Shown here: positions 22,125-32,000 of the stretch, in pieces
How the letters are laid out: the number at the start of each line of letters is the position of its first letter
How positions within the stretch are numbered: the stretch's first letter is position 1
Assembly (NCBI RefSeq): GCF_000446015.1
Contig: NC_022093.1
Coordinates: 1,620,001-1,652,000, forward strand
Direction of reading: 5' to 3'
DNA: 32,000 bases
From: Thermofilum adornatum
GTDB lineage: Archaea; Thermoproteota; Thermoprotei; Thermofilales; Thermofilaceae
Program-made: the position numbers and the translations under genes
Notes under the pieces: generated by a model
Seen by the model: the letters and a program-made list of their open reading frames with translations, nothing else
What the model was told of the DNA's origin: nothing
Databases searched by the model: none

Positions 22125-22607
22125 TTAGGCTATCGTTGCGCCTTTCTCTAGTCTGTTAATCAAATCATAGATTCTCCAATAGGAGTTCCTCACCTGTTCA
22201 ACAATAGTAGCTGCTAGCTTCTCAGCGAATGTGAATTCGAATACTTCCTTAGAACCCGCTAACCCATTCACGCCATACTCCAGATACTCTCTGATCGAAG
22301 TTAAGAGCCGCAAGAGCACAGCGGATCTAGCTAACTCCACTCTTATCGACTTAACTTCGTATTCCTTCAAGTCCTGCGGGCATTGCTTCAGCTTCTCATA
22401 AGCTTCGGGGATTTTATCACTGACATCGTGTGGTATCCTCCCCTCCCTAGTCTTATAGCTTATGCCCAGCTTGTCGAGAAGAGCCTTAATCGAGAGCTCC
22501 ATGCACATTTGGGCTTCGAGCATTGCACCGGAGTAATCATGCTCTTTGAGATGGTTCTCTGCTGCGTAAAGCCTCGCTCGGGCATCCTCTATTCTGCCAA
22601 CAGCCAT
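22125..22607 (-). CDS. HEPN-domain protein, orphan (no MNT partner)
   Basis: The N-terminal helix pair ARARLYAAENHLKEHDYSGAMLEAQMCMELSIKALLDKLGISY...GRIPHDVSD matches the HEPN layout seen in the 7918 gene (LALKAYLL...THSIKDL). 160 aa. Confidence 0.65.
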   Translation of the reverse strand: MAVGRIEDARARLYAAENHLKEHDYSGAMLEAQMCMELSIKALLDKLGISYKTREGRIPHDVSDKIPEAYEKLKQCPQDLKEYEVKSIRVELARSAVLLRLLTSIREYLEYGVNGLAGSKEVFEFTFAEKLAATIVEQVRNSYWRIYDLINRLEKGATIA

Positions 22608-22647: not shown

Positions 22648-23007
22648 CTAGCGCGCTATCTCTCTAAATGTTTCTGGGTCCAGCTTGTTTATTGCGAAGC
22701 CTACCAGCATCTTGGCTGGCTTCTTTTTTGGCTCCCCAAAGACCTTTTCGACCCTTATTTTGAGCCTTAGGGGCCAGATGGGCTCGCCTCTCTCCTTTTC
22801 CTTGGGCCAGAGAGGCTCCCTGCTCTCGAACTTGCCCTCCACGGTCCCATAGCCAAGGACGCCTGTCTTGACGGCGTAGAAGACGACCTTGTCGCCCGGC
22901 TGTACCTTGCCCCAGAGCGGCCTAGCCCTCTCCCTGACGCCCCAGACGCCCCTCTCGATTCCAATCATCCAGTTGTCAAGCGTACCGACAAGAGTCCAGT
23001 AATTCAT
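22648..23007 (-). CDS. EVE / PUA-like domain protein (UPF0310-type)
   Basis: MNYWTLVGTLDNWMIGIERGVWGVRERARPLWGKVQPGDKVVFYAV...GYGTVEG...PIWPLRLKI follows the YW...NW...VWGV...V.PGDK.V.Y pattern of small archaeal EVE/UPF0310 proteins. It lies 40 nt upstream of the HEPN gene on the same strand. Confidence 0.7.
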   Translation of the reverse strand: MNYWTLVGTLDNWMIGIERGVWGVRERARPLWGKVQPGDKVVFYAVKTGVLGYGTVEGKFESREPLWPKEKERGEPIWPLRLKIRVEKVFGEPKKKPAKMLVGFAINKLDPETFREIAR

Positions 23008-23096: not shown

Positions 23097-23339
23097 TTAG
23101 CTTATTTCTTCCCGATATAAGAAGAGAATCGTCTTTTTCTTGTGTGACTTTTCAGAAAGATAAATTTCTTTAACTTCAAGAAGACACTCCTTGAGTTGTT
23201 CCAAATCAAAAATGCTCTCAATATCGTCTAAAGAAGTTCCGTCCAATTTCACTTCATCTACAGTAAATGATGAACCATTATCTATTACTACAGAATATAC
23301 ATCCTTCTCCCTGCGGATCCTTACCTTGAAGCCCATCAA
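23097..23339 (-). CDS. Hypothetical small acidic protein (80 aa), very AT-rich
   Basis: ORF only. It is divergent from the methyltransferase operon and no motif was recognised. Confidence 0.35.
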   Translation of the reverse strand: MMGFKVRIRREKDVYSVVIDNGSSFTVDEVKLDGTSLDDIESIFDLEQLKECLLEVKEIYLSEKSHKKKTILFLYREEIS

Positions 23340-23444: not shown

Positions 23445-26400
23445 GTGATGTCTTCATTCCTCGAATCCCCCAAATTCCCCGTAGACATTGTAAACCAGGC
23501 CGCAGAAAAAGAGAAAAAGGGCGGAGGACGCCCAGAACACTGGGAAATGGTCTTCTGGTGGACGAGAAAACCCCTAGCAAGCGCCCGCGCAGTGCTCGCG
23601 GCGGCCGCACTCCCCCCAGACATAGATGTACACACTTTTGTCACGCAGGTCCTCAAGGCAAAAGTAAACCTTAAGGGGCAAGTCGAAAACGTCCCGCACA
23701 GGGAGAACCCGTCGCCGCCACCCGAGTGGAGGGAGCGCTTCGCCAAGATGAAAGTGCTAGACCCCTTCGCGGGCTTCGGCTCTATACCACTAGAGGCGAT
23801 GAGGCTCGGCTTCGGCGAAGTAGTTGCGGTAGAACTGCTCCCGACAACTTATGTTTTCCTTAAGGCTGTACTCGAGTATCCAAAGTGGGCCGCAGAGAGA
23901 GGCCTAGGAGAACAGCTAGTCAGAGACGTTGAGAAGTGGGGAAAATGGATAACAGAACAGCTCGCCGGCGACCCAGACATCAAGGAGCTATACGACCCCG
24001 ACGTTGCTGTCTACATAGGCACATGGGAAGTAAAGTGCCCCCACTGCGGCAAATACACGCCCCTCATAGGCAACTGGTGGCTAGCAAGAGTATCCAAGGG
24101 CTCATCAGAGGAGACAGAGGAGGGAGAAGAGGAGGGAGCCAAAAAGAAGATCTTTAGCAGGCTTGCATGGATGGACTGGGAAAACGGGGCAATAAAGATA
24201 GTAGACCTCAACAAGGAGCTAAAAACAAGCGAGATCGAGGCCAAGGTCAACAGCAAGCAGGGCTACGTCGAGGTCAACGGCACCAAGAGGACGGTCAGGA
24301 AGCCAAATATATACGCGAGACGCGAAACAGGTACATGCCTCCACTGCGGAAACCAGATTAGATACATCTCACTGAAAACCGGGAAACACAGCATCGAGAA
24401 GCCAAAAGGCGAAGAAACAGAGTGGTACGTCAAGCACGCGATCAGAGAGTGGAACCGGCTGCTCGAGGAGTACCTAAGCGGGAGAATCGAGCTCGAGAAG
24501 CTCATCGAAAGCCCCGCCAGGCCAACCCTCCTCGTAAAAGTGAAGGTGAGAGAGGGAGACCTCGAGTTCGAGCCTGCGACCAAGCAGGACACGGAGAAGC
24601 TGTGGAAAGCCCTAGAGAAACTAAGGAGGATGTGGGGTGACCCAGATATACCGATAGAATTATTCGCGCCTTACCAAATGGGAACTGCCGGGGCTTTCCG
24701 AATAACACTTTGGGGTTTCGATAAATGGTTCAAACTTTTCAACCCGCGCCAGCTCTTGACCCTCGTCAAGCTGGTTAAGCTGATCAGGGAGGCTGGCAAA
24801 AAGATTGAAGAGGAGAAGCTGAGAGAGGGGTGGAGTGAGGAGGACGCGTTCAAGTACGCGGAAGTGGTAACGGTATATCTATCGATAGCTCTAGCAAGGT
24901 GTGCTAGCTATAACAGCGCTGTGACAGTTGTTGACTCGGCAAACCCCTGGGGGGTGAAAATAGCACATAGCTTGGCAATGCGTGGGATAGCTATGCAATG
25001 GAATTTTGGTGAAACGAATTTATTCGCTAAAAGTTTACCATTTTTCCAGGTACAAGGCTCATGGATAAAAAACATAGATAAGATAACCAATGGTTTAACC
25101 TATATTATTTCATCAATTTCGATCAAACTTAATAAGGTATTTGTTTCCATAGATGATTCTGCAATACTAAGCAGTCTCGGGAATGAAAAATTTGATGCTA
25201 TAGTTACTGACCCACCTTACAGGGACGATGTGCCTTACGTAGAGCTTAGTGACTTCTATTATGTATGGCTTAAGCGGGCTCTCAGCGACATTAGCGAGGG
25301 AAGACTTGTGCCACGATTCATGGGCGAAGCTTTTTTCAAGCGTGTTGGCGTTGCCTACAGGGAGATCAGGACTCAGTGGGAGGAATTTGCGACTAGGGAG
25401 GTTGGGCTTAACGTCGGAAGACTGAAATATTTTAAGGACAGTGAAGCTTCCGAGGATGAGGCACGTAGTTATTTTATTGATCTTTTGAGTAAGTCCTTTT
25501 TGTCGATCAGGCGTGTCCTAAAGGATGATGGCATATTGGTTACCTATTATGCTCATACGGATCCTGAGGCTTGGGAGGAGCTGATATCTGCTGGGTGGAG
25601 GGCTGGCTTCCGTGTAACTACAGCTTTTCCTGTATCAACGGAGTCTGCTCAGCGTGTGACTGCGAGGGGGAAGGCGGCTCTTGACACGTCGATTGTGGTT
25701 GTTTGGAGGCCTGGCGTTAAGGGTGAGGCTTTGTGGGACGAGGTTTATAGGGATGCTTTGGTGGCCGCTGAGGAGAGAGCTCTCGAGTTGCTTAGGGCTG
25801 GTCGTTCGGGAGTGGACTTGTTTGTTGGTACGCTGGCTGCCACGCTTTCTGCTGTGACTTCTCGTGAGAGGATTGTTGGCGTCAATGATGTTGGTGGGTT
25901 TGTTAGGGAGCGGGCTTACCCTGCGGCTGCTAGGGGGCTGGCTAGGGCTGTTTCGAGGTTTGTTGGCAGCGGGGAGGCTGGAGAGGAGGTTAGGGATGCT
26001 GGGGCGCTTTTCTATATGCTTGCCAAGGTGTTGGTGCCTTGGAGTGGTAGGGCTAGGGGGAGGGTGATGGATAGGAGCACAGTTCACATTATTGGCTTTG
26101 GGACGGGACTCGACGACAAGAAGCTGACAAGTATGAGGATTGTGGAGAAGGTTGACAGCGAGTTTCGACTTTTGGAACCTCGTGGCGAAGAGAGAGATGA
26201 TCTTGTAGAGCTTCTCCGTGCTAGGGGCCTTGACCCGTCAAGGCCGGTGTTGAGGAGTGCTGTTGATGCCTTGCATTTGTTGGAGTATTATGCCGCTACT
26301 CTTGACGTCAAAAGCTTTAGGGAGCAGTACGAGAAGCTCCGCTCTGTTAATGCTGTGCTCGTAGATGAGGCTTTGAGGCTTGCGAGGGTATTTTCTGGCC

Positions 26401-26501
26401 GTCTTGTACCGAGCGTTGATCCGGAGAGGAGACTCTGCGAGAGGGTCTTGTCGTATGTGAGTGGTGCTGGAACGCTTGAGGGGTGGTTGGGTGGGGCTTA
26501 A
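23445..26501 (+). CDS. Zn-ribbon-containing DNA methyltransferase, DUF1156/COG1743 type (N6-adenine/N4-cytosine class)
   Basis: N-terminal FPVDIVNQAAEKEK...WWTRKPLASARAVL (DUF1156 signature). SAM motif I VLDPFAGFGSIPLEA (from 23760). Two CxxC pairs (CPHCG near 24036, CLHCG near 24335). Catalytic motif IV DPPY (25209-25220). 1018 aa. Confidence 0.9.
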   Translation: MMSSFLESPKFPVDIVNQAAEKEKKGGGRPEHWEMVFWWTRKPLASARAVLAAAALPPDIDVHTFVTQVLKAKVNLKGQVENVPHRENPSPPPEWRERFAKMKVLDPFAGFGSIPLEAMRLGFGEVVAVELLPTTYVFLKAVLEYPKWAAERGLGEQLVRDVEKWGKWITEQLAGDPDIKELYDPDVAVYIGTWEVKCPHCGKYTPLIGNWWLARVSKGSSEETEEGEEEGAKKKIFSRLAWMDWENGAIKIVDLNKELKTSEIEAKVNSKQGYVEVNGTKRTVRKPNIYARRETGTCLHCGNQIRYISLKTGKHSIEKPKGEETEWYVKHAIREWNRLLEEYLSGRIELEKLIESPARPTLLVKVKVREGDLEFEPATKQDTEKLWKALEKLRRMWGDPDIPIELFAPYQMGTAGAFRITLWGFDKWFKLFNPRQLLTLVKLVKLIREAGKKIEEEKLREGWSEEDAFKYAEVVTVYLSIALARCASYNSAVTVVDSANPWGVKIAHSLAMRGIAMQWNFGETNLFAKSLPFFQVQGSWIKNIDKITNGLTYIISSISIKLNKVFVSIDDSAILSSLGNEKFDAIVTDPPYRDDVPYVELSDFYYVWLKRALSDISEGRLVPRFMGEAFFKRVGVAYREIRTQWEEFATREVGLNVGRLKYFKDSEASEDEARSYFIDLLSKSFLSIRRVLKDDGILVTYYAHTDPEAWEELISAGWRAGFRVTTAFPVSTESAQRVTARGKAALDTSIVVVWRPGVKGEALWDEVYRDALVAAEERALELLRAGRSGVDLFVGTLAATLSAVTSRERIVGVNDVGGFVRERAYPAAARGLARAVSRFVGSGEAGEEVRDAGALFYMLAKVLVPWSGRARGRVMDRSTVHIIGFGTGLDDKKLTSMRIVEKVDSEFRLLEPRGEERDDLVELLRARGLDPSRPVLRSAVDALHLLEYYAATLDVKSFREQYEKLRSVNAVLVDEALRLARVFSGRLVPSVDPERRLCERVLSYVSGAGTLEGWLGGA

Positions 26502-29500
26502 GGGGTACTGTGAGGTTAGGGGAGAGCTGTTCGACGAGAGGCTTGACGAGCAGCTTGCTCCATCGCTTTCAGAGGTTTACATGGGTAGGGGCCACGAGGT
26601 TTACTCTAACCCTGTGCTGTTCTTCGAGTCTACGTATTTCTCGGACTCTATGAGGAGGGTTCTCAGAGGCATTGTGGAGGCTGTGGAGGGCAAGGGGACT
26701 AGGAGGGTTTTCCCGCTTTTCTCGCTTTATGGCGGCGGAAAGACGCACTTGTTGCTCGCGGTACTCCACGCTGTGAGGAAGCCAGAGTCGCTTTCAAGGG
26801 TTGACAGTGAGCTGGCTGTTCGCTTTGTTGAGGCTGGGGCGAAGCTTGTGGTGCTGGATGGGGATTCTGACGAGCTTTGTCCGAGCCCTGCCAGGCCGCT
26901 GGATGTGAAGCATTACGTGGTTAGGAGTGTTTGGGGCTCTATGGCTCACCAGCTTGGGAAGTATAGGTTTTTCGAGGAGGAGGATAGGGGTGGCTTTGCG
27001 CCATCTGTGGAGGCTATCAGGAAGCTCCTTGGGGACGAGCCTGTAATCATCCTTATTGACGAGATTGCGAAGTATGTTGCGAGGTTTAGGGGGAGCCAGG
27101 ACGAAAAGCTTCGGGACTATGGGAAGAACGTTGTGGCTTTTGTTGAGAGCCTTGTGAAGGCTGTCGAGGGGACGAGGTCTGTCGTAGTTATTACTCTTCC
27201 GGTGGAGGTTAGGGGTGAAGAGGAGCGCTACATGGAGGCCTACGAGGAGGAGACTAAGATGCTTAGGGACGCTATTGGGAGGGTTGCATCGGCATACGAT
27301 GTTCCTCTTGATGCGGGGGACGTTGTCCGTGTACTGCAGAGGAGGATCTTTAAGAAGATTGATCGTGACGCTGTCGTGGCGCTTAGAAGTAGATACCTGG
27401 AGCTTTACAGCTCTGAGGAGCAAGTTTTCGGAAAATCTGCGGTCGAGAAGGCTTCTAGGATAGATGAGCTTGCGCCTTTCCATCCAAGCTACATTGATGT
27501 TCTATACGACATTGTTACAAGGCACCCCGGGCTCCAGAGGACGAGGGACGCACTTAGGATTACTCGTGTAGTGGTAAGGGAGATCTGGAATAGTGCCGAG
27601 GATCCTGACTTTGTTATGCCTTGGCATATAAATGTTGGGCGTCTTGATGCGCTTTTGCTTGGACAGAGTTTCTCGAAGTTTAAGCCGATTGTCGACAGGG
27701 ACATATATGACAACGCCCTGAAGAGGGGCCCGCTTGTTCACGCGGTTGCGCTCGCCATCTTTGTTAGGACGTATGTTTATGGCCTCGCAACGAGGCCGGA
27801 GCGGGTGTTCCCTACTAGGGAAGACGTGGCTTTCATGGTTTATGAGGAGTCTCTTGCTAAAAAGACCAACTCGAAGCCAGCCGACGTGTTGAATGCCTTG
27901 GATGTTGCTTCACGTGAATTGCTGTTTATACAGGAGAAGGACGGAAGGTACTGGTTTACCCCTATTTCTCCAATAATAGCGATTGTCCAGGACGAGGCTA
28001 GGCGTGTGAGCGAGGTTGAGGCTAGAAACCGTTTGCTCGATGCAATTAGAAGCCTGTCACAGAAGCCCCCACCGACTACTGGGAAAAAGAAGCAGGAACA
28101 GCAGAAGCTCTTTTCTCTCGTCGATGTAAGGGACAAGCCACTACCCACAGATGAGCCAAAATATTCGTTGATAATTGCCCCCCGGGTACTCTCACAGGAA
28201 GACTTGAGGAGGCTGATTTTTGAGGACGAAGGTGGCCGCTCCAGGGTCTATAGGAATACTGTGGCGGTGCTTTATCCGAGCGATGGGAGGAGGTTTAATA
28301 GGCTATTGGAGCTTGCTAGGGAGCTTATTGCCTGTGAGAATGTTGCTGAGATGCTTAATGAGATTTATCAGGATGAGGATATACGGGAGCTTCAGACTAG
28401 AAAGCTTAGACAGTACATGAGGGACAGGGAGACACAGCTCTACCAGGAAATAATTAACGCGTTTGACACTATAGGTTATCCTAGCGTGAGCGAGCGCGGC
28501 GACAATTATGCAAAGACTTCACCTGTGAGGCCAGAGGCGACTTCTCTGGCGAGGATCGCGGAGGAGGCTCTAGAGAGTCCTGATGTTGGAAAGGCATATC
28601 TGACCTCCTTAGGGTATGATGTTTTCGAGCACTTGTTGAAGGGGATTAGTGTTGATATTAGTGAAGGTAGTAGGGAGCTTACAGTGAAAGAAATTTTGGG
28701 CTACTTCTATACTCACCCCGGGTTGCCTTTTGTTCCCAGGAACCTGGTGATTCAGGCCCTAGTTGAGGGCGTGAGAAATCTCAAGATTGGTATCCAGAGG
28801 GGTGGCCAGATTTACTGGGTTCGCATTTATAGCCCTGAAAATGTACCGACGATTATTGAGGGGGCTCCGCCCAGCATGCTGGAGGACAATGATATTGTGC
28901 TTCCTTGGAGGATTGCGGCTGAGCGCTTGTTGGAACAGTTGAAGCCTGTAAGTGAGAAGAGGGATGGCAAGGTCATCAGGATTCGGTACGTGTTATTGGA
29001 AGGGGGTAGGGAGCATGACTTGAGTAGTCTTAGCACGGAGGATGCTGCGAAGCTTCTGAAGACTTATCCTCTGGTTAGGAAAGAGGAGGAGATCACTGAG
29101 GGGATCGAGGTTACGCTTCGTCCCAGCTTTGTTGAGGATAAGCCTGGCTCCATGGTTCAAGTGTTTGTGGACATAACTCCGGTGGGCAAGGTCGACGACG
29201 TAGTGAAGATTAAGGTAAGTCAAGGAGAAATCGAGCCCGGCCAGGGCAGGCCGCCGTTTACTGCTGTTTGGAGGCTTCAGCTACCGAATAAGCCGGGAAC
29301 CTACGAGTTTGAGGTGTCCGTAGAGTATAGGAGACCTGTTTCTGGGAGGCTACAGGTAAAAGTGTTGGGAGAAGAGAAGGTAAAAGTTGTCGGCCTAGTT
29401 GTGATGGATTTGTTGGAAAGTGAGGATATAGTCAAGACTTTCCCAGATTTGGTTTTTGAAGATGGCTTTGCGGCTTTGAGGTCTGGCGAGCAAGAGATCA

Positions 29501-29691
29501 CTTTGAAGACTAGGAATACTGATCCAGTCGTGTTTATAGAAATGGTCAAGGAGGCTATGAGTCTCACCGGTATTAGGAGACTTGAAGGCTTCTCTGCTAG
29601 GTTCAAGTTTAAGCAACCAAAAGAGCTTTCCGAAGTTGAAGATATTCTTTCAAGGTTTAGGAGTGTAGAGAAGATTGTGACGAGCATATGA
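26461..29691 (+). CDS. Large P-loop ATPase, DUF499/COG1483 type
   Basis: Walker A-like LYGGGKTH (26731-26748) and Walker B VIILIDEIAKY. 1076 aa. It overlaps the methyltransferase gene (up to 41 nt; alternative GTG/TTG starts run to 26491). N-terminal YSNPVLFFESTYFSDSM matches the family's FF..TY.T region. Confidence 0.8.
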   Translation: MVLERLRGGWVGLKGYCEVRGELFDERLDEQLAPSLSEVYMGRGHEVYSNPVLFFESTYFSDSMRRVLRGIVEAVEGKGTRRVFPLFSLYGGGKTHLLLAVLHAVRKPESLSRVDSELAVRFVEAGAKLVVLDGDSDELCPSPARPLDVKHYVVRSVWGSMAHQLGKYRFFEEEDRGGFAPSVEAIRKLLGDEPVIILIDEIAKYVARFRGSQDEKLRDYGKNVVAFVESLVKAVEGTRSVVVITLPVEVRGEEERYMEAYEEETKMLRDAIGRVASAYDVPLDAGDVVRVLQRRIFKKIDRDAVVALRSRYLELYSSEEQVFGKSAVEKASRIDELAPFHPSYIDVLYDIVTRHPGLQRTRDALRITRVVVREIWNSAEDPDFVMPWHINVGRLDALLLGQSFSKFKPIVDRDIYDNALKRGPLVHAVALAIFVRTYVYGLATRPERVFPTREDVAFMVYEESLAKKTNSKPADVLNALDVASRELLFIQEKDGRYWFTPISPIIAIVQDEARRVSEVEARNRLLDAIRSLSQKPPPTTGKKKQEQQKLFSLVDVRDKPLPTDEPKYSLIIAPRVLSQEDLRRLIFEDEGGRSRVYRNTVAVLYPSDGRRFNRLLELARELIACENVAEMLNEIYQDEDIRELQTRKLRQYMRDRETQLYQEIINAFDTIGYPSVSERGDNYAKTSPVRPEATSLARIAEEALESPDVGKAYLTSLGYDVFEHLLKGISVDISEGSRELTVKEILGYFYTHPGLPFVPRNLVIQALVEGVRNLKIGIQRGGQIYWVRIYSPENVPTIIEGAPPSMLEDNDIVLPWRIAAERLLEQLKPVSEKRDGKVIRIRYVLLEGGREHDLSSLSTEDAAKLLKTYPLVRKEEEITEGIEVTLRPSFVEDKPGSMVQVFVDITPVGKVDDVVKIKVSQGEIEPGQGRPPFTAVWRLQLPNKPGTYEFEVSVEYRRPVSGRLQVKVLGEEKVKVVGLVVMDLLESEDIVKTFPDLVFEDGFAALRSGEQEITLKTRNTDPVVFIEMVKEAMSLTGIRRLEGFSARFKFKQPKELSEVEDILSRFRSVEKIVTSI

Positions 29692-30110
29692 GTAGGGAGC
29701 CTCTTAGACGTGTCTCTTACACTGAAAGGAAGTCGAAGAAGGCTGAACATGGTGGAGTAGTTCAGGTCTGTCATTTTTATCCCTATACTTATTCCAAGAA
29801 GCCAGAGGTTTCCGCGGTGTGTCCGTGGAGCGAGCTAGTCCTCTTCGCGGAGTCTCTTGGTGCGCGTTTGTCTGGCAAGAGGTCGCTGCGCGTGGGCGAC
29901 GGTGTTTACAAGAGGCTTCTTGTGTATGGTGTCGTGAGGGAGAGGATTAGGGATCCTTCGAAGGCTGGAGAGCTCCGCGAGATAGTTGCTGGGCTGGACG
30001 AATACGAGCTGCATTTTTGGTTCGCGAAGTTTATTGCTGCAACTGAGAGGGGCAGGCAGGCTCTCAATAGGCCTGCTAGGGCGTTTAGGGTTTTGTACGG
30101 GCTTGATTAG
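29688..30110 (+). CDS. Small conserved-position protein (140 aa), possibly the DUF3780-type component of such operons
   Basis: ATGA start/stop overlap with the ATPase gene and a 1-nt gap to the helicase gene. Family membership cannot be verified by eye. Confidence 0.45.
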   Translation: MSREPLRRVSYTERKSKKAEHGGVVQVCHFYPYTYSKKPEVSAVCPWSELVLFAESLGARLSGKRSLRVGDGVYKRLLVYGVVRERIRDPSKAGELREIVAGLDEYELHFWFAKFIAATERGRQALNRPARAFRVLYGLD

Positions 30111-30111
30111 T

Positions 30112-32000
30112 ATGGCTCTAAGCCTTGTCCACGACGTTTTGGATCTTTATTCCCGGTATAACCCGATTCTGTATCTTGGCCTTCAGAGGGCTAGGCCTCC
30201 CGTTTATCCTTATCTGCATCAAGCCGAGTTCCTTGCACGTACAATGGTTAGGGTGCCGGTCCGCGTGTTTGTTGCGGACGAGATAGGTCTCGGCAAGACT
30301 GTTACAGCTATTTCGACTGCTAAGAGGCTTTCCGATCTGGGCCTTGCCAAGAGGGTTCTCATATTGGTTCCCCGGATACTTGTGAGGCAGTGGCTCCTAG
30401 AGCTTGAACGCTTCGGTATAAGGGCCACAAGGATCGAGAGAGCGAACTTCCAGAGTCTTTCTTCGAGCGGTTTTCCAGAGGGTTTCTATGTCGCGTCGAT
30501 GGATCTAGTTAAAAGGGAGAGGTACATGGATAAGATTCTAGGTGTTTCCTGGGACTTGCTTATTGTGGATGAGGCTCACAGGGTAGGCAAGTCATCTGCC
30601 AAAAAAGAGACCCAGAGGTACAGGTTTGTCTCTAGGATTGCGGTCGACAAGTCCAAGCATATCCTTTTGCTTTCTGCTACGCCCCACCGTGGAGACCCTA
30701 AGGACTATCTTTCCAGGCTTATGCTTTTGGACCCCTCCTTAACGACAGATTTTCAGAGGCTTGACAATGTGTTATTTTATAGTGCTACACAGAATGTGCT
30801 GGTCTTTAGAAGAACAAAGCTCGACGTGAACAATGTCTATGAAGGTGAGAAGGTCTTTCCAGGGTGTAGTGTTTCAGCGGTGATTGTCCCTGCTACCCGT
30901 GACGAGAGCGAGTTCCATAGGAGGCTTATAAGCTTCCTCAGGACGAAGATCCTCGACTACCATAATGTGAGTGGAACAGAGCCTAGGGCTCTTGGTCTTC
31001 TCAATGCTTTGATCTTTAAGAGGGCTTCATCGAGCCCGGCCGCTGCTATTAACACTATGCAGGTTATCCTCGAGAAGCGAGCATACTGGCTCCAAAATAG
31101 GGTTATTGCCGAGAAAGATTTAAGGAAAAGGATTAATCTTGCCAAGGCTCTACTCGGCACTGGTTTTGAGGAATATGAGGAAGATGTGGATCCAGACAAG
31201 GTTGTTGAAGAGTTTGCAGAAAGGTGCTCTATCCTGTTTTCTGAAAATGATGTAAGAGAGCTTCAGCATCTTGTCCAGCTCGCCAAGGCTTCGATGACTA
31301 ATGATAGCAGGCTGAAGGGCGTTGTTAGCATTGTTGAGCAACATGTAAGCATGGGCGACAAGGTAATCTTGTTTACAGAGTTTAAGGATACAGCTCACTA
31401 CGTGTTCGATGCTCTGGTGAAGGTTCTCGGCAGAGAAAACGTGAGGTTGCTCACTAGTGACGAGGCGGCCAGGGAAGAAGAGCTGATGTCGATACGTTCG
31501 TGGCTCGAGGAAAACGGGAAGAGAGTTCTAGTTGCAACTGACGTGGCATCTGAGGGCCTTAACCTCCAGGTTGCCAATGTCCTGATAAATTATGAGCCTC
31601 CCTGGTCCCCCATAAAACTGGAGCAGAGGATTGGGAGGGTTTGGAGGCTGGGTCAAAAGAAGGATGTAAATGTTTATACTGTTTTCCTTGCTGTCGACAG
31701 CGACAAGGATGTTCTAGACGTGTTGTACAAGAAGCTCGTTGCTATGGGGAGGGCTCTCGGGAAGCTCGAGAAGCCTCCAGTCGGAGAAGAGGCATACGTT
31801 ATCGACTTCGAGGAAAGGAGAGAGCCGCAACCTGTTACACTGTCTATTAAGAGTGGATCAAGGCTCAAAAAGGTAAGCGAGTACACACTTAGAAGGCAGT
31901 ACATCGAAAAGGGCAGAGAGGGCTTCGAGAGGCTCGTAGACTCTATTGCAAGAACTATACAGCAGCTCCAGAAGGATCTTGAAAAGGTTAGCGGTAGTAA
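30112..32000 (+). CDS. SNF2/RapA-family superfamily-2 helicase, 5' 629 codons; continues beyond the window end
   Basis: Absent from the ORF track (no stop in the window). Hand translation: MALSLVHDVL... with motif I ADEIGLGKT (30286-30300), motif II DEAH (30568-30579), motif III LLLSATPHRG, motif V LVATDVASEGLNLQ, motif VI YEPPWSPIKLEQRIGRVWRLGQ. Confidence 0.9.
   Translation, partial: MALSLVHDVLDLYSRYNPILYLGLQRARPPVYPYLHQAEFLARTMVRVPVRVFVADEIGLGKTVTAISTAKRLSDLGLAKRVLILVPRILVRQWLLELERFGIRATRIERANFQSLSSSGFPEGFYVASMDLVKRERYMDKILGVSWDLLIVDEAHRVGKSSAKKETQRYRFVSRIAVDKSKHILLLSATPHRGDPKDYLSRLMLLDPSLTTDFQRLDNVLFYSATQNVLVFRRTKLDVNNVYEGEKVFPGCSVSAVIVPATRDESEFHRRLISFLRTKILDYHNVSGTEPRALGLLNALIFKRASSSPAAAINTMQVILEKRAYWLQNRVIAEKDLRKRINLAKALLGTGFEEYEEDVDPDKVVEEFAERCSILFSENDVRELQHLVQLAKASMTNDSRLKGVVSIVEQHVSMGDKVILFTEFKDTAHYVFDALVKVLGRENVRLLTSDEAAREEELMSIRSWLEENGKRVLVATDVASEGLNLQVANVLINYEPPWSPIKLEQRIGRVWRLGQKKDVNVYTVFLAVDSDKDVLDVLYKKLVAMGRALGKLEKPPVGEEAYVIDFEERREPQPVTLSIKSGSRLKKVSEYTLRRQYIEKGREGFERLVDSIARTIQQLQKDLEKVSGS

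What the first reader, a model, noticed from the sequence alone, without database searches (positions are those of the whole stretch)
23445..32000. Translationally coupled operon: DUF1156-type Zn-ribbon methyltransferase, DUF499-type ATPase, a 140-aa protein and an SNF2 helicase, with no recognisable nuclease
Seen in sequence: four same-strand genes are packed with a 41-nt overlap, an ATGA overlap and a 1-nt gap. They carry clear SAM-binding and DPPY methyltransferase motifs, a GGGKTH/DEI P-loop, and all seven SF2 helicase motifs. Established knowledge: as I recall, co-occurrence of COG1743/DUF1156 methylases with COG1483/DUF499 ATPases and COG0553-type helicases was flagged in comparative-genomic surveys of defence islands as a putative R-M/BREX-like system. 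I know of no experimentally established mechanism, effector or target motif. Inference: methylation marks self, while the giant ATPase and the helicase act on unmodified invaders. The effector is either hidden in the ATPase C-terminal 700 aa or in the small protein, or lies downstream of the window. This is the most likely poorly described system in the window.
Basis: partly seen in the sequence, partly recalled or inferred. Interest (0 to 1): 0.85.

Follow-up and report, generated by a model that had tools for sequence, protein, structure and literature searches.

The report
Archaeal Hma/BREX-related defence operon, nuclease included
This is an archaeal (Thermofilaceae) copy of an already described restriction-modification-like anti-virus system (Hma, also called DUF499-centred BREX-related); its "missing" nuclease lies just past the window end, and two extra conserved genes make it an undescribed variant.

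Summary
The four genes, their overlaps and their motifs are real. The "no nuclease" conclusion is an artefact of the window end. A 99.9%-identical metagenome contig continues the sequence. On it the SNF2 helicase is 987 aa and ends in a NOV_C/PD-(D/E)XK nuclease domain. A fifth, overlapping gene encodes an RNase J-like metallo-beta-lactamase/beta-CASP nuclease.

The DUF1156 methylase, DUF499 ATPase and SNF2-nuclease match PADLOC HmaB, HmaC and HmaA. This trio was predicted in archaea together with stand-alone EVE proteins (Bell 2020), and an EVE gene sits divergently upstream here. It was named Hma in 2021. HmaA was shown to be an anti-T4 nickase in 2024. The trio was reclassified as BREX-related (BR) types 1-3 in 2026.

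This copy fits no published subtype cleanly. It has the type-1 C-terminal nuclease. It lacks the N-terminal Tudor domain and carries a stand-alone small alpha+beta protein, as type 2 does. That 140-aa protein is a distant DUF7680 relative. The small protein and the MBL nuclease are conserved in every related locus examined.

The methylase carries a hypervariable cassette while the ATPase and helicase stay constant, so the methylase probably sets sequence specificity.

Verdict: a known kind of system, a modestly new variant, moderate-to-low interest.

The parts
22125..22607 (-). Stand-alone HEPN-domain protein (160 aa). Possible accessory RNase or toxin; linkage to the system is weak.
   Evidence: Pfam HEPN 6.7e-9. 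A truncated copy (74% identity over 88 aa) lies next to EVE in L005. No HEPN match was found in L004.
22648..23007 (-). Stand-alone EVE (PUA-like, modified-base-binding) protein, 119 aa, divergent from the operon.
   Evidence: Pfam EVE 1.9e-6. EVE is also adjacent to the methylase gene in L004 (same strand), L005 and L021. The partnership of stand-alone EVE with COG1743-DUF499-SNF2/nuclease operons in archaea is described in PMC7641849.
23008..23444 (.). A+T-rich divergent intergenic region, presumed to hold promoters for the EVE gene and the operon. It contains a questionable 80-aa ORF (23097-23339, - strand).
   Evidence: Sequence read. The 80-aa ORF has no family hit. In L005 a 2.1-kb insertion with a 399-aa gene sits at this place. 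The promoters are inferred; the sigma-70 scan does not apply to archaea.
23445..26501 (+). HmaB-type DUF1156 DNA methyltransferase (1018 aa; the likely start is ATG 23448). It has an N-terminal DUF1156 helical domain, motif I at aa 104-112, a large insert with a 4-Cys zinc site (C198, C201, C298, C301) and DPPY at aa 589-592.
   Evidence: Pfam DUF1156 9.5e-10. PADLOC MTase_II 2e-227 full length, HmaB 3.9e-54, type-2 'DUF1156_MTase' only 1e-19. NCBIfam DUF1156_antiphage 105 bits against a cut-off of 1000. Motifs.
24825..25214 (+). Hypervariable cassette of the methylase (aa 461-590, just upstream of DPPY). Presumed to be the part that determines the target sequence.
   Evidence: 33-45% identity between alleles whose flanks are 88-96% identical, with at least 4 cassettes among 5 close loci. 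There is no nucleotide similarity across 24834-25200 to L005 or across 24889-25175 to L004.
26461..29691 (+). HmaC-type DUF499 ORC/Cdc6-like AAA+/STAND ATPase (1076 aa; the start may be GTG 26491). Walker A is GGGKTH at aa 91-96 and Walker B is IILIDE at aa 196-201.
   Evidence: Pfam DUF499 7e-169 over aa 126-943. PADLOC HmaC 3.5e-51 against type-2 DUF499 2.8e-24. No nuclease family hit in the C-terminal 676 aa, even at E<=1. No PDB relative by sequence.
29688..30110 (+). Small alpha+beta subunit (140 aa), translationally coupled to both neighbours. It is a distant DUF7680 relative. The proposed role is an adaptor or reader that takes the place of the helicase's lost Tudor domain.
   Evidence: AF2 pLDDT 90.8; element order is three strands, a helix, a strand, then four helices. 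The family has about 57 clusters at 50% identity. hhalign against DUF7680 gives probability 73%, E 3e-5. Reciprocal HMM hits. The DUF7680 model has the same element order. The gene always lies between the ATPase and helicase genes. No PDB or BFVD fold match.
30112..32000 (+). HmaA-type RapA-like Swi2/Snf2 translocase, cut by the window end. The full protein is 987 aa and would end at about 33075 in window numbering. Its NOV_C/PD-(D/E)XK nuclease domain (aa 868-948; D897, E912, K914) lies beyond the window. There is no N-terminal Tudor domain. An overlapping 416-aa MBL/beta-CASP nuclease gene follows at about 33062-34312.
   Evidence: NOV_C 6.2e-20. PADLOC HmaA 2.3e-63. RapA 1e-33, aligned from RapA residue ~143. 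Residue 16 aligns with residue 88 of a canonical HmaA-type helicase, and the nuclease domains are 40% identical. Catalytic residues are invariant. For the MBL protein: Lactamase_B 8e-9, RMMBL, RNase J TIGR00649 2.9e-11, PDB RNase J 3e-10.

Best explanation
The locus is a restriction-modification-like anti-virus/anti-plasmid operon of the Hma family, also called the DUF499-centred BREX-related (BR) family. The host is an archaeon of the family Thermofilaceae. The complete module has five co-directional, translationally coupled genes:
- an HmaB-type DUF1156 methylase;
- an HmaC-type DUF499 ATPase;
- a 140-aa DUF7680-like small subunit;
- an HmaA-type Swi2/Snf2 translocase fused to a C-terminal PD-(D/E)XK (NOV_C) nuclease;
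- an RNase J-like MBL/beta-CASP nuclease.
A divergent stand-alone EVE gene lies upstream.

Proposed mechanism (inferred, not shown here):
1. The methylase modifies a short host motif. The motif is read by the methylase's swappable cassette (aa 461-590). The DPPY motif is typical of amino-methyltransferases, so N6-adenine is probable.
2. The ORC/Cdc6-like ATPase, probably in complex with the methylase as the specificity subunit, detects unmodified sites on incoming DNA and recruits or licenses the helicase-nuclease.
3. The small subunit bridges or regulates the helicase in place of the Tudor domain that canonical HmaA carries.
4. The RapA-like motor translocates, and its PD-(D/E)XK domain nicks or cuts the DNA.
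5. The beta-CASP enzyme then degrades the nicked nucleic acid as a second effector.
6. EVE may add recognition of hypermodified viral DNA.
For: Shown here:
- Family assignments by Pfam, PADLOC and NCBIfam.
- A nuclease domain and an MBL gene lie on the 99.93%-identical extension contig.
- The catalytic residues of both nucleases are invariant across homologues down to 35-39% identity.
- The gene order methylase-ATPase-small-helicase/NOV_C-MBL is conserved in every informative related locus. That covers L001, L002, L004, L005 and L011-L016 and 17 metagenome loci. MBL follows the helicase in 9 of the 9 metagenome contigs that reach that far.
- EVE is adjacent in four loci, in two different orientations.
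- Only the methylase has a hypervariable cassette; the ATPase and helicase stay 84-100% identical in every 100-aa window.

From the literature:
- The archaeal COG1743-DUF499-SNF2/nuclease-EVE system was predicted in PMC7641849.
- Hma was defined in PMC8565338.
- HmaA protects E. coli from T4 and needs its NOV_C nickase (PMC11232893).
- The BR typing and the RM-like model come from PMC12839542.
Against: - No experiment exists on any archaeal member.
- In the only experimental study, HmaA alone gave protection, and T4 grown in an HmaB-expressing host did not gain or lose sensitivity. The self/non-self role of the methylase is therefore unproven.
- The locus breaks two features of type-1 BR: it has no Tudor domain and it has extra core genes. 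It also lacks the HKD nuclease and a Pfam-detectable DUF3780 of type 2.
- The best PADLOC hit of the helicase is DrmD, not HmaA (229 against 213 bits).
- The roles given to the small protein, the MBL enzyme and EVE are inferred from position and fold only.
- RNase J-like enzymes are classically RNases, so a DNA-degrading role is speculative.
- The extension beyond position 32000 comes from a near-identical contig, not from the window's own record.
Confidence: 0.8

Rival explanations
1. One reading: a nuclease-less four-gene system whose effector is hidden in the C-terminal ~700 aa of the ATPase, is the 140-aa protein, or acts without cleavage as BREX does.
For: Inside the window no nuclease domain is detectable. 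Type-3 BR and BREX helicases do lack nuclease fusions.
Against: The helicase is cut by the window end. The full protein carries NOV_C with an invariant D-E-K triad, and an MBL nuclease follows it. The ATPase C-terminus shows only DUF499. The small protein has no catalytic-looking invariant residues across its family; only W111 is invariant.
Confidence: 0.03
2. A question of classification: the locus is a derivative of type-2 BR. Type 2 has a small DUF3780-class subunit and a Tudor-less helicase. On this reading the N-terminal HKD nuclease was exchanged for a C-terminal PD-(D/E)XK nuclease. The alternative is a type-1 system that gained a small subunit.
For: The helicase has lost the Tudor domain, which is a type-2 synapomorphy according to PMC12839542. 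A stand-alone small alpha+beta protein with four strands and five helices matches the published description of DUF3780. The small protein is related to DUF7680. DUF7680 sits in the DUF3780 slot of a PLD-SNF2 locus. The EExxWxYSK...RKAL motif is shared in register between DUF7680 and DUF3780.
Against: The ATPase and methylase score much better against the Hma (type-1) models than against the type-2 models: HmaC 172 against 83 bits, HmaB 182 against 68 bits. They lie far below the NCBIfam type-2 equivalog cut-offs. The gene order differs: here the small gene follows the ATPase and precedes the helicase, whereas in type 2 it lies between the ATPase and the methylase. No significant profile match to DUF3780 was found.
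Confidence: 0.3
3. The system is chiefly a modification-dependent (type IV-like) system. EVE reads hypermodified viral bases and directs the helicase-nuclease to them. The methylase acts only as an antitoxin-like safeguard. This is the hypothesis of Bell et al. 2020.
For: An EVE gene is retained next to the operon in four loci, in different orientations. The model is proposed in PMC7641849.
Against: EVE is outside the translationally coupled block and is separated from it by a variable spacer, which holds a 2.1-kb insertion in L005. The rapid cassette turnover of the methylase is what one expects when methylation itself defines self against a sequence-specific restriction activity. EVE could not be assessed in most short contigs.
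Confidence: 0.12
4. The operon is not a defence system. It is a housekeeping module for transcription, repair or RNA processing: a RapA-like remodeller, an RNase J-like nuclease and a methyltransferase.
For: The closest solved relatives are RapA (1e-33) and RNase J (3e-10).
Against: The ATPase hits plasmids of many phyla (138 records). Only one of 185,579 species-representative genomes carries a close small-protein relative. The methylase has a hypervariable cassette. One locus (L034) has decayed. EVE and HEPN are neighbours. HmaA has an experimental anti-phage phenotype.
Confidence: 0.03

Closest known systems
Hma system (HmaA helicase, HmaB methylase, HmaC ATPase). Defined in PADLOC (Payne et al. 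2021, PMC8565338). HmaA characterised in Halomonas meridiana (PMC11232893).
   Same: All three core proteins hit the Hma HMMs: HmaA 2.3e-63, HmaB 3.9e-54, HmaC 3.5e-51. The helicase carries the same C-terminal NOV_C/PD-(D/E)XK domain, whose nickase activity was shown to be needed for anti-T4 defence.
   Different: The helicase lacks about 70-100 N-terminal residues (the Tudor domain). Two extra translationally coupled genes are conserved: the 140-aa subunit and the MBL/beta-CASP nuclease. The host is archaeal and the gene order is B-C-small-A-MBL.
Type-1 DUF499-centred BREX-related (BR) system (Rakesh & Krishnan 2026, PMC12839542).
   Same: A tripartite core with a PD-(D/E)XK nuclease at the helicase C-terminus. 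The methylase has an N-terminal DUF1156 domain and a Zn-finger TRD insert. The ATPase is ORC/Cdc6-like.
   Different: Type 1 is described as 'only ATPase, MTase and helicase', with a Tudor domain at the helicase N-terminus. Here the Tudor domain is absent and a small subunit and an MBL nuclease are added. MBL/beta-CASP is not mentioned in that paper's main text, including its section on auxiliary effectors.
Type-2 BR system, which is the NCBIfam 'anti-phage-associated' DUF499/DUF3780/DUF1156/phospholipase-D four-gene set (for example Acinetobacter pB20AB01c and a B. cereus plasmid), together with the actinobacterial DUF7680 version (Rhodococcus plasmid).
   Same: A Tudor-less helicase plus a stand-alone small alpha+beta subunit. 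The small subunit here is detectably related to DUF7680.
   Different: There is no HKD/PLD nuclease on the helicase. No Pfam or profile match to DUF3780 was found. The position of the small gene differs. The core proteins score far below the type-2 equivalog cut-offs.
Archaeal 'COG1743 -> DUF499 -> SWI2/SNF2-nuclease -> EVE' predicted restriction system (Bell et al. 2020, PMC7641849).
   Same: Exactly this gene content and host range, including the stand-alone EVE neighbour.
   Different: That description, as far as its main text goes, mentions neither the small subunit nor the MBL nuclease. Here EVE is upstream and divergent rather than downstream.
Type-3 BREX (BrxC, PglXI, BrxHII, PglZ) and DISARM (DrmD).
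   Same: The RapA-like Swi2/Snf2 helicase is homologous (BrxHII 2e-55; DrmD 3e-68). The methylase and ATPase are architectural homologues of PglXI and BrxC according to PMC12839542.
   Different: The locus has no PglZ, BrxA/B/F or BrxL, and no DrmA, DrmB (DUF1998) or DrmC. The ATPase is DUF499, not DUF6079.

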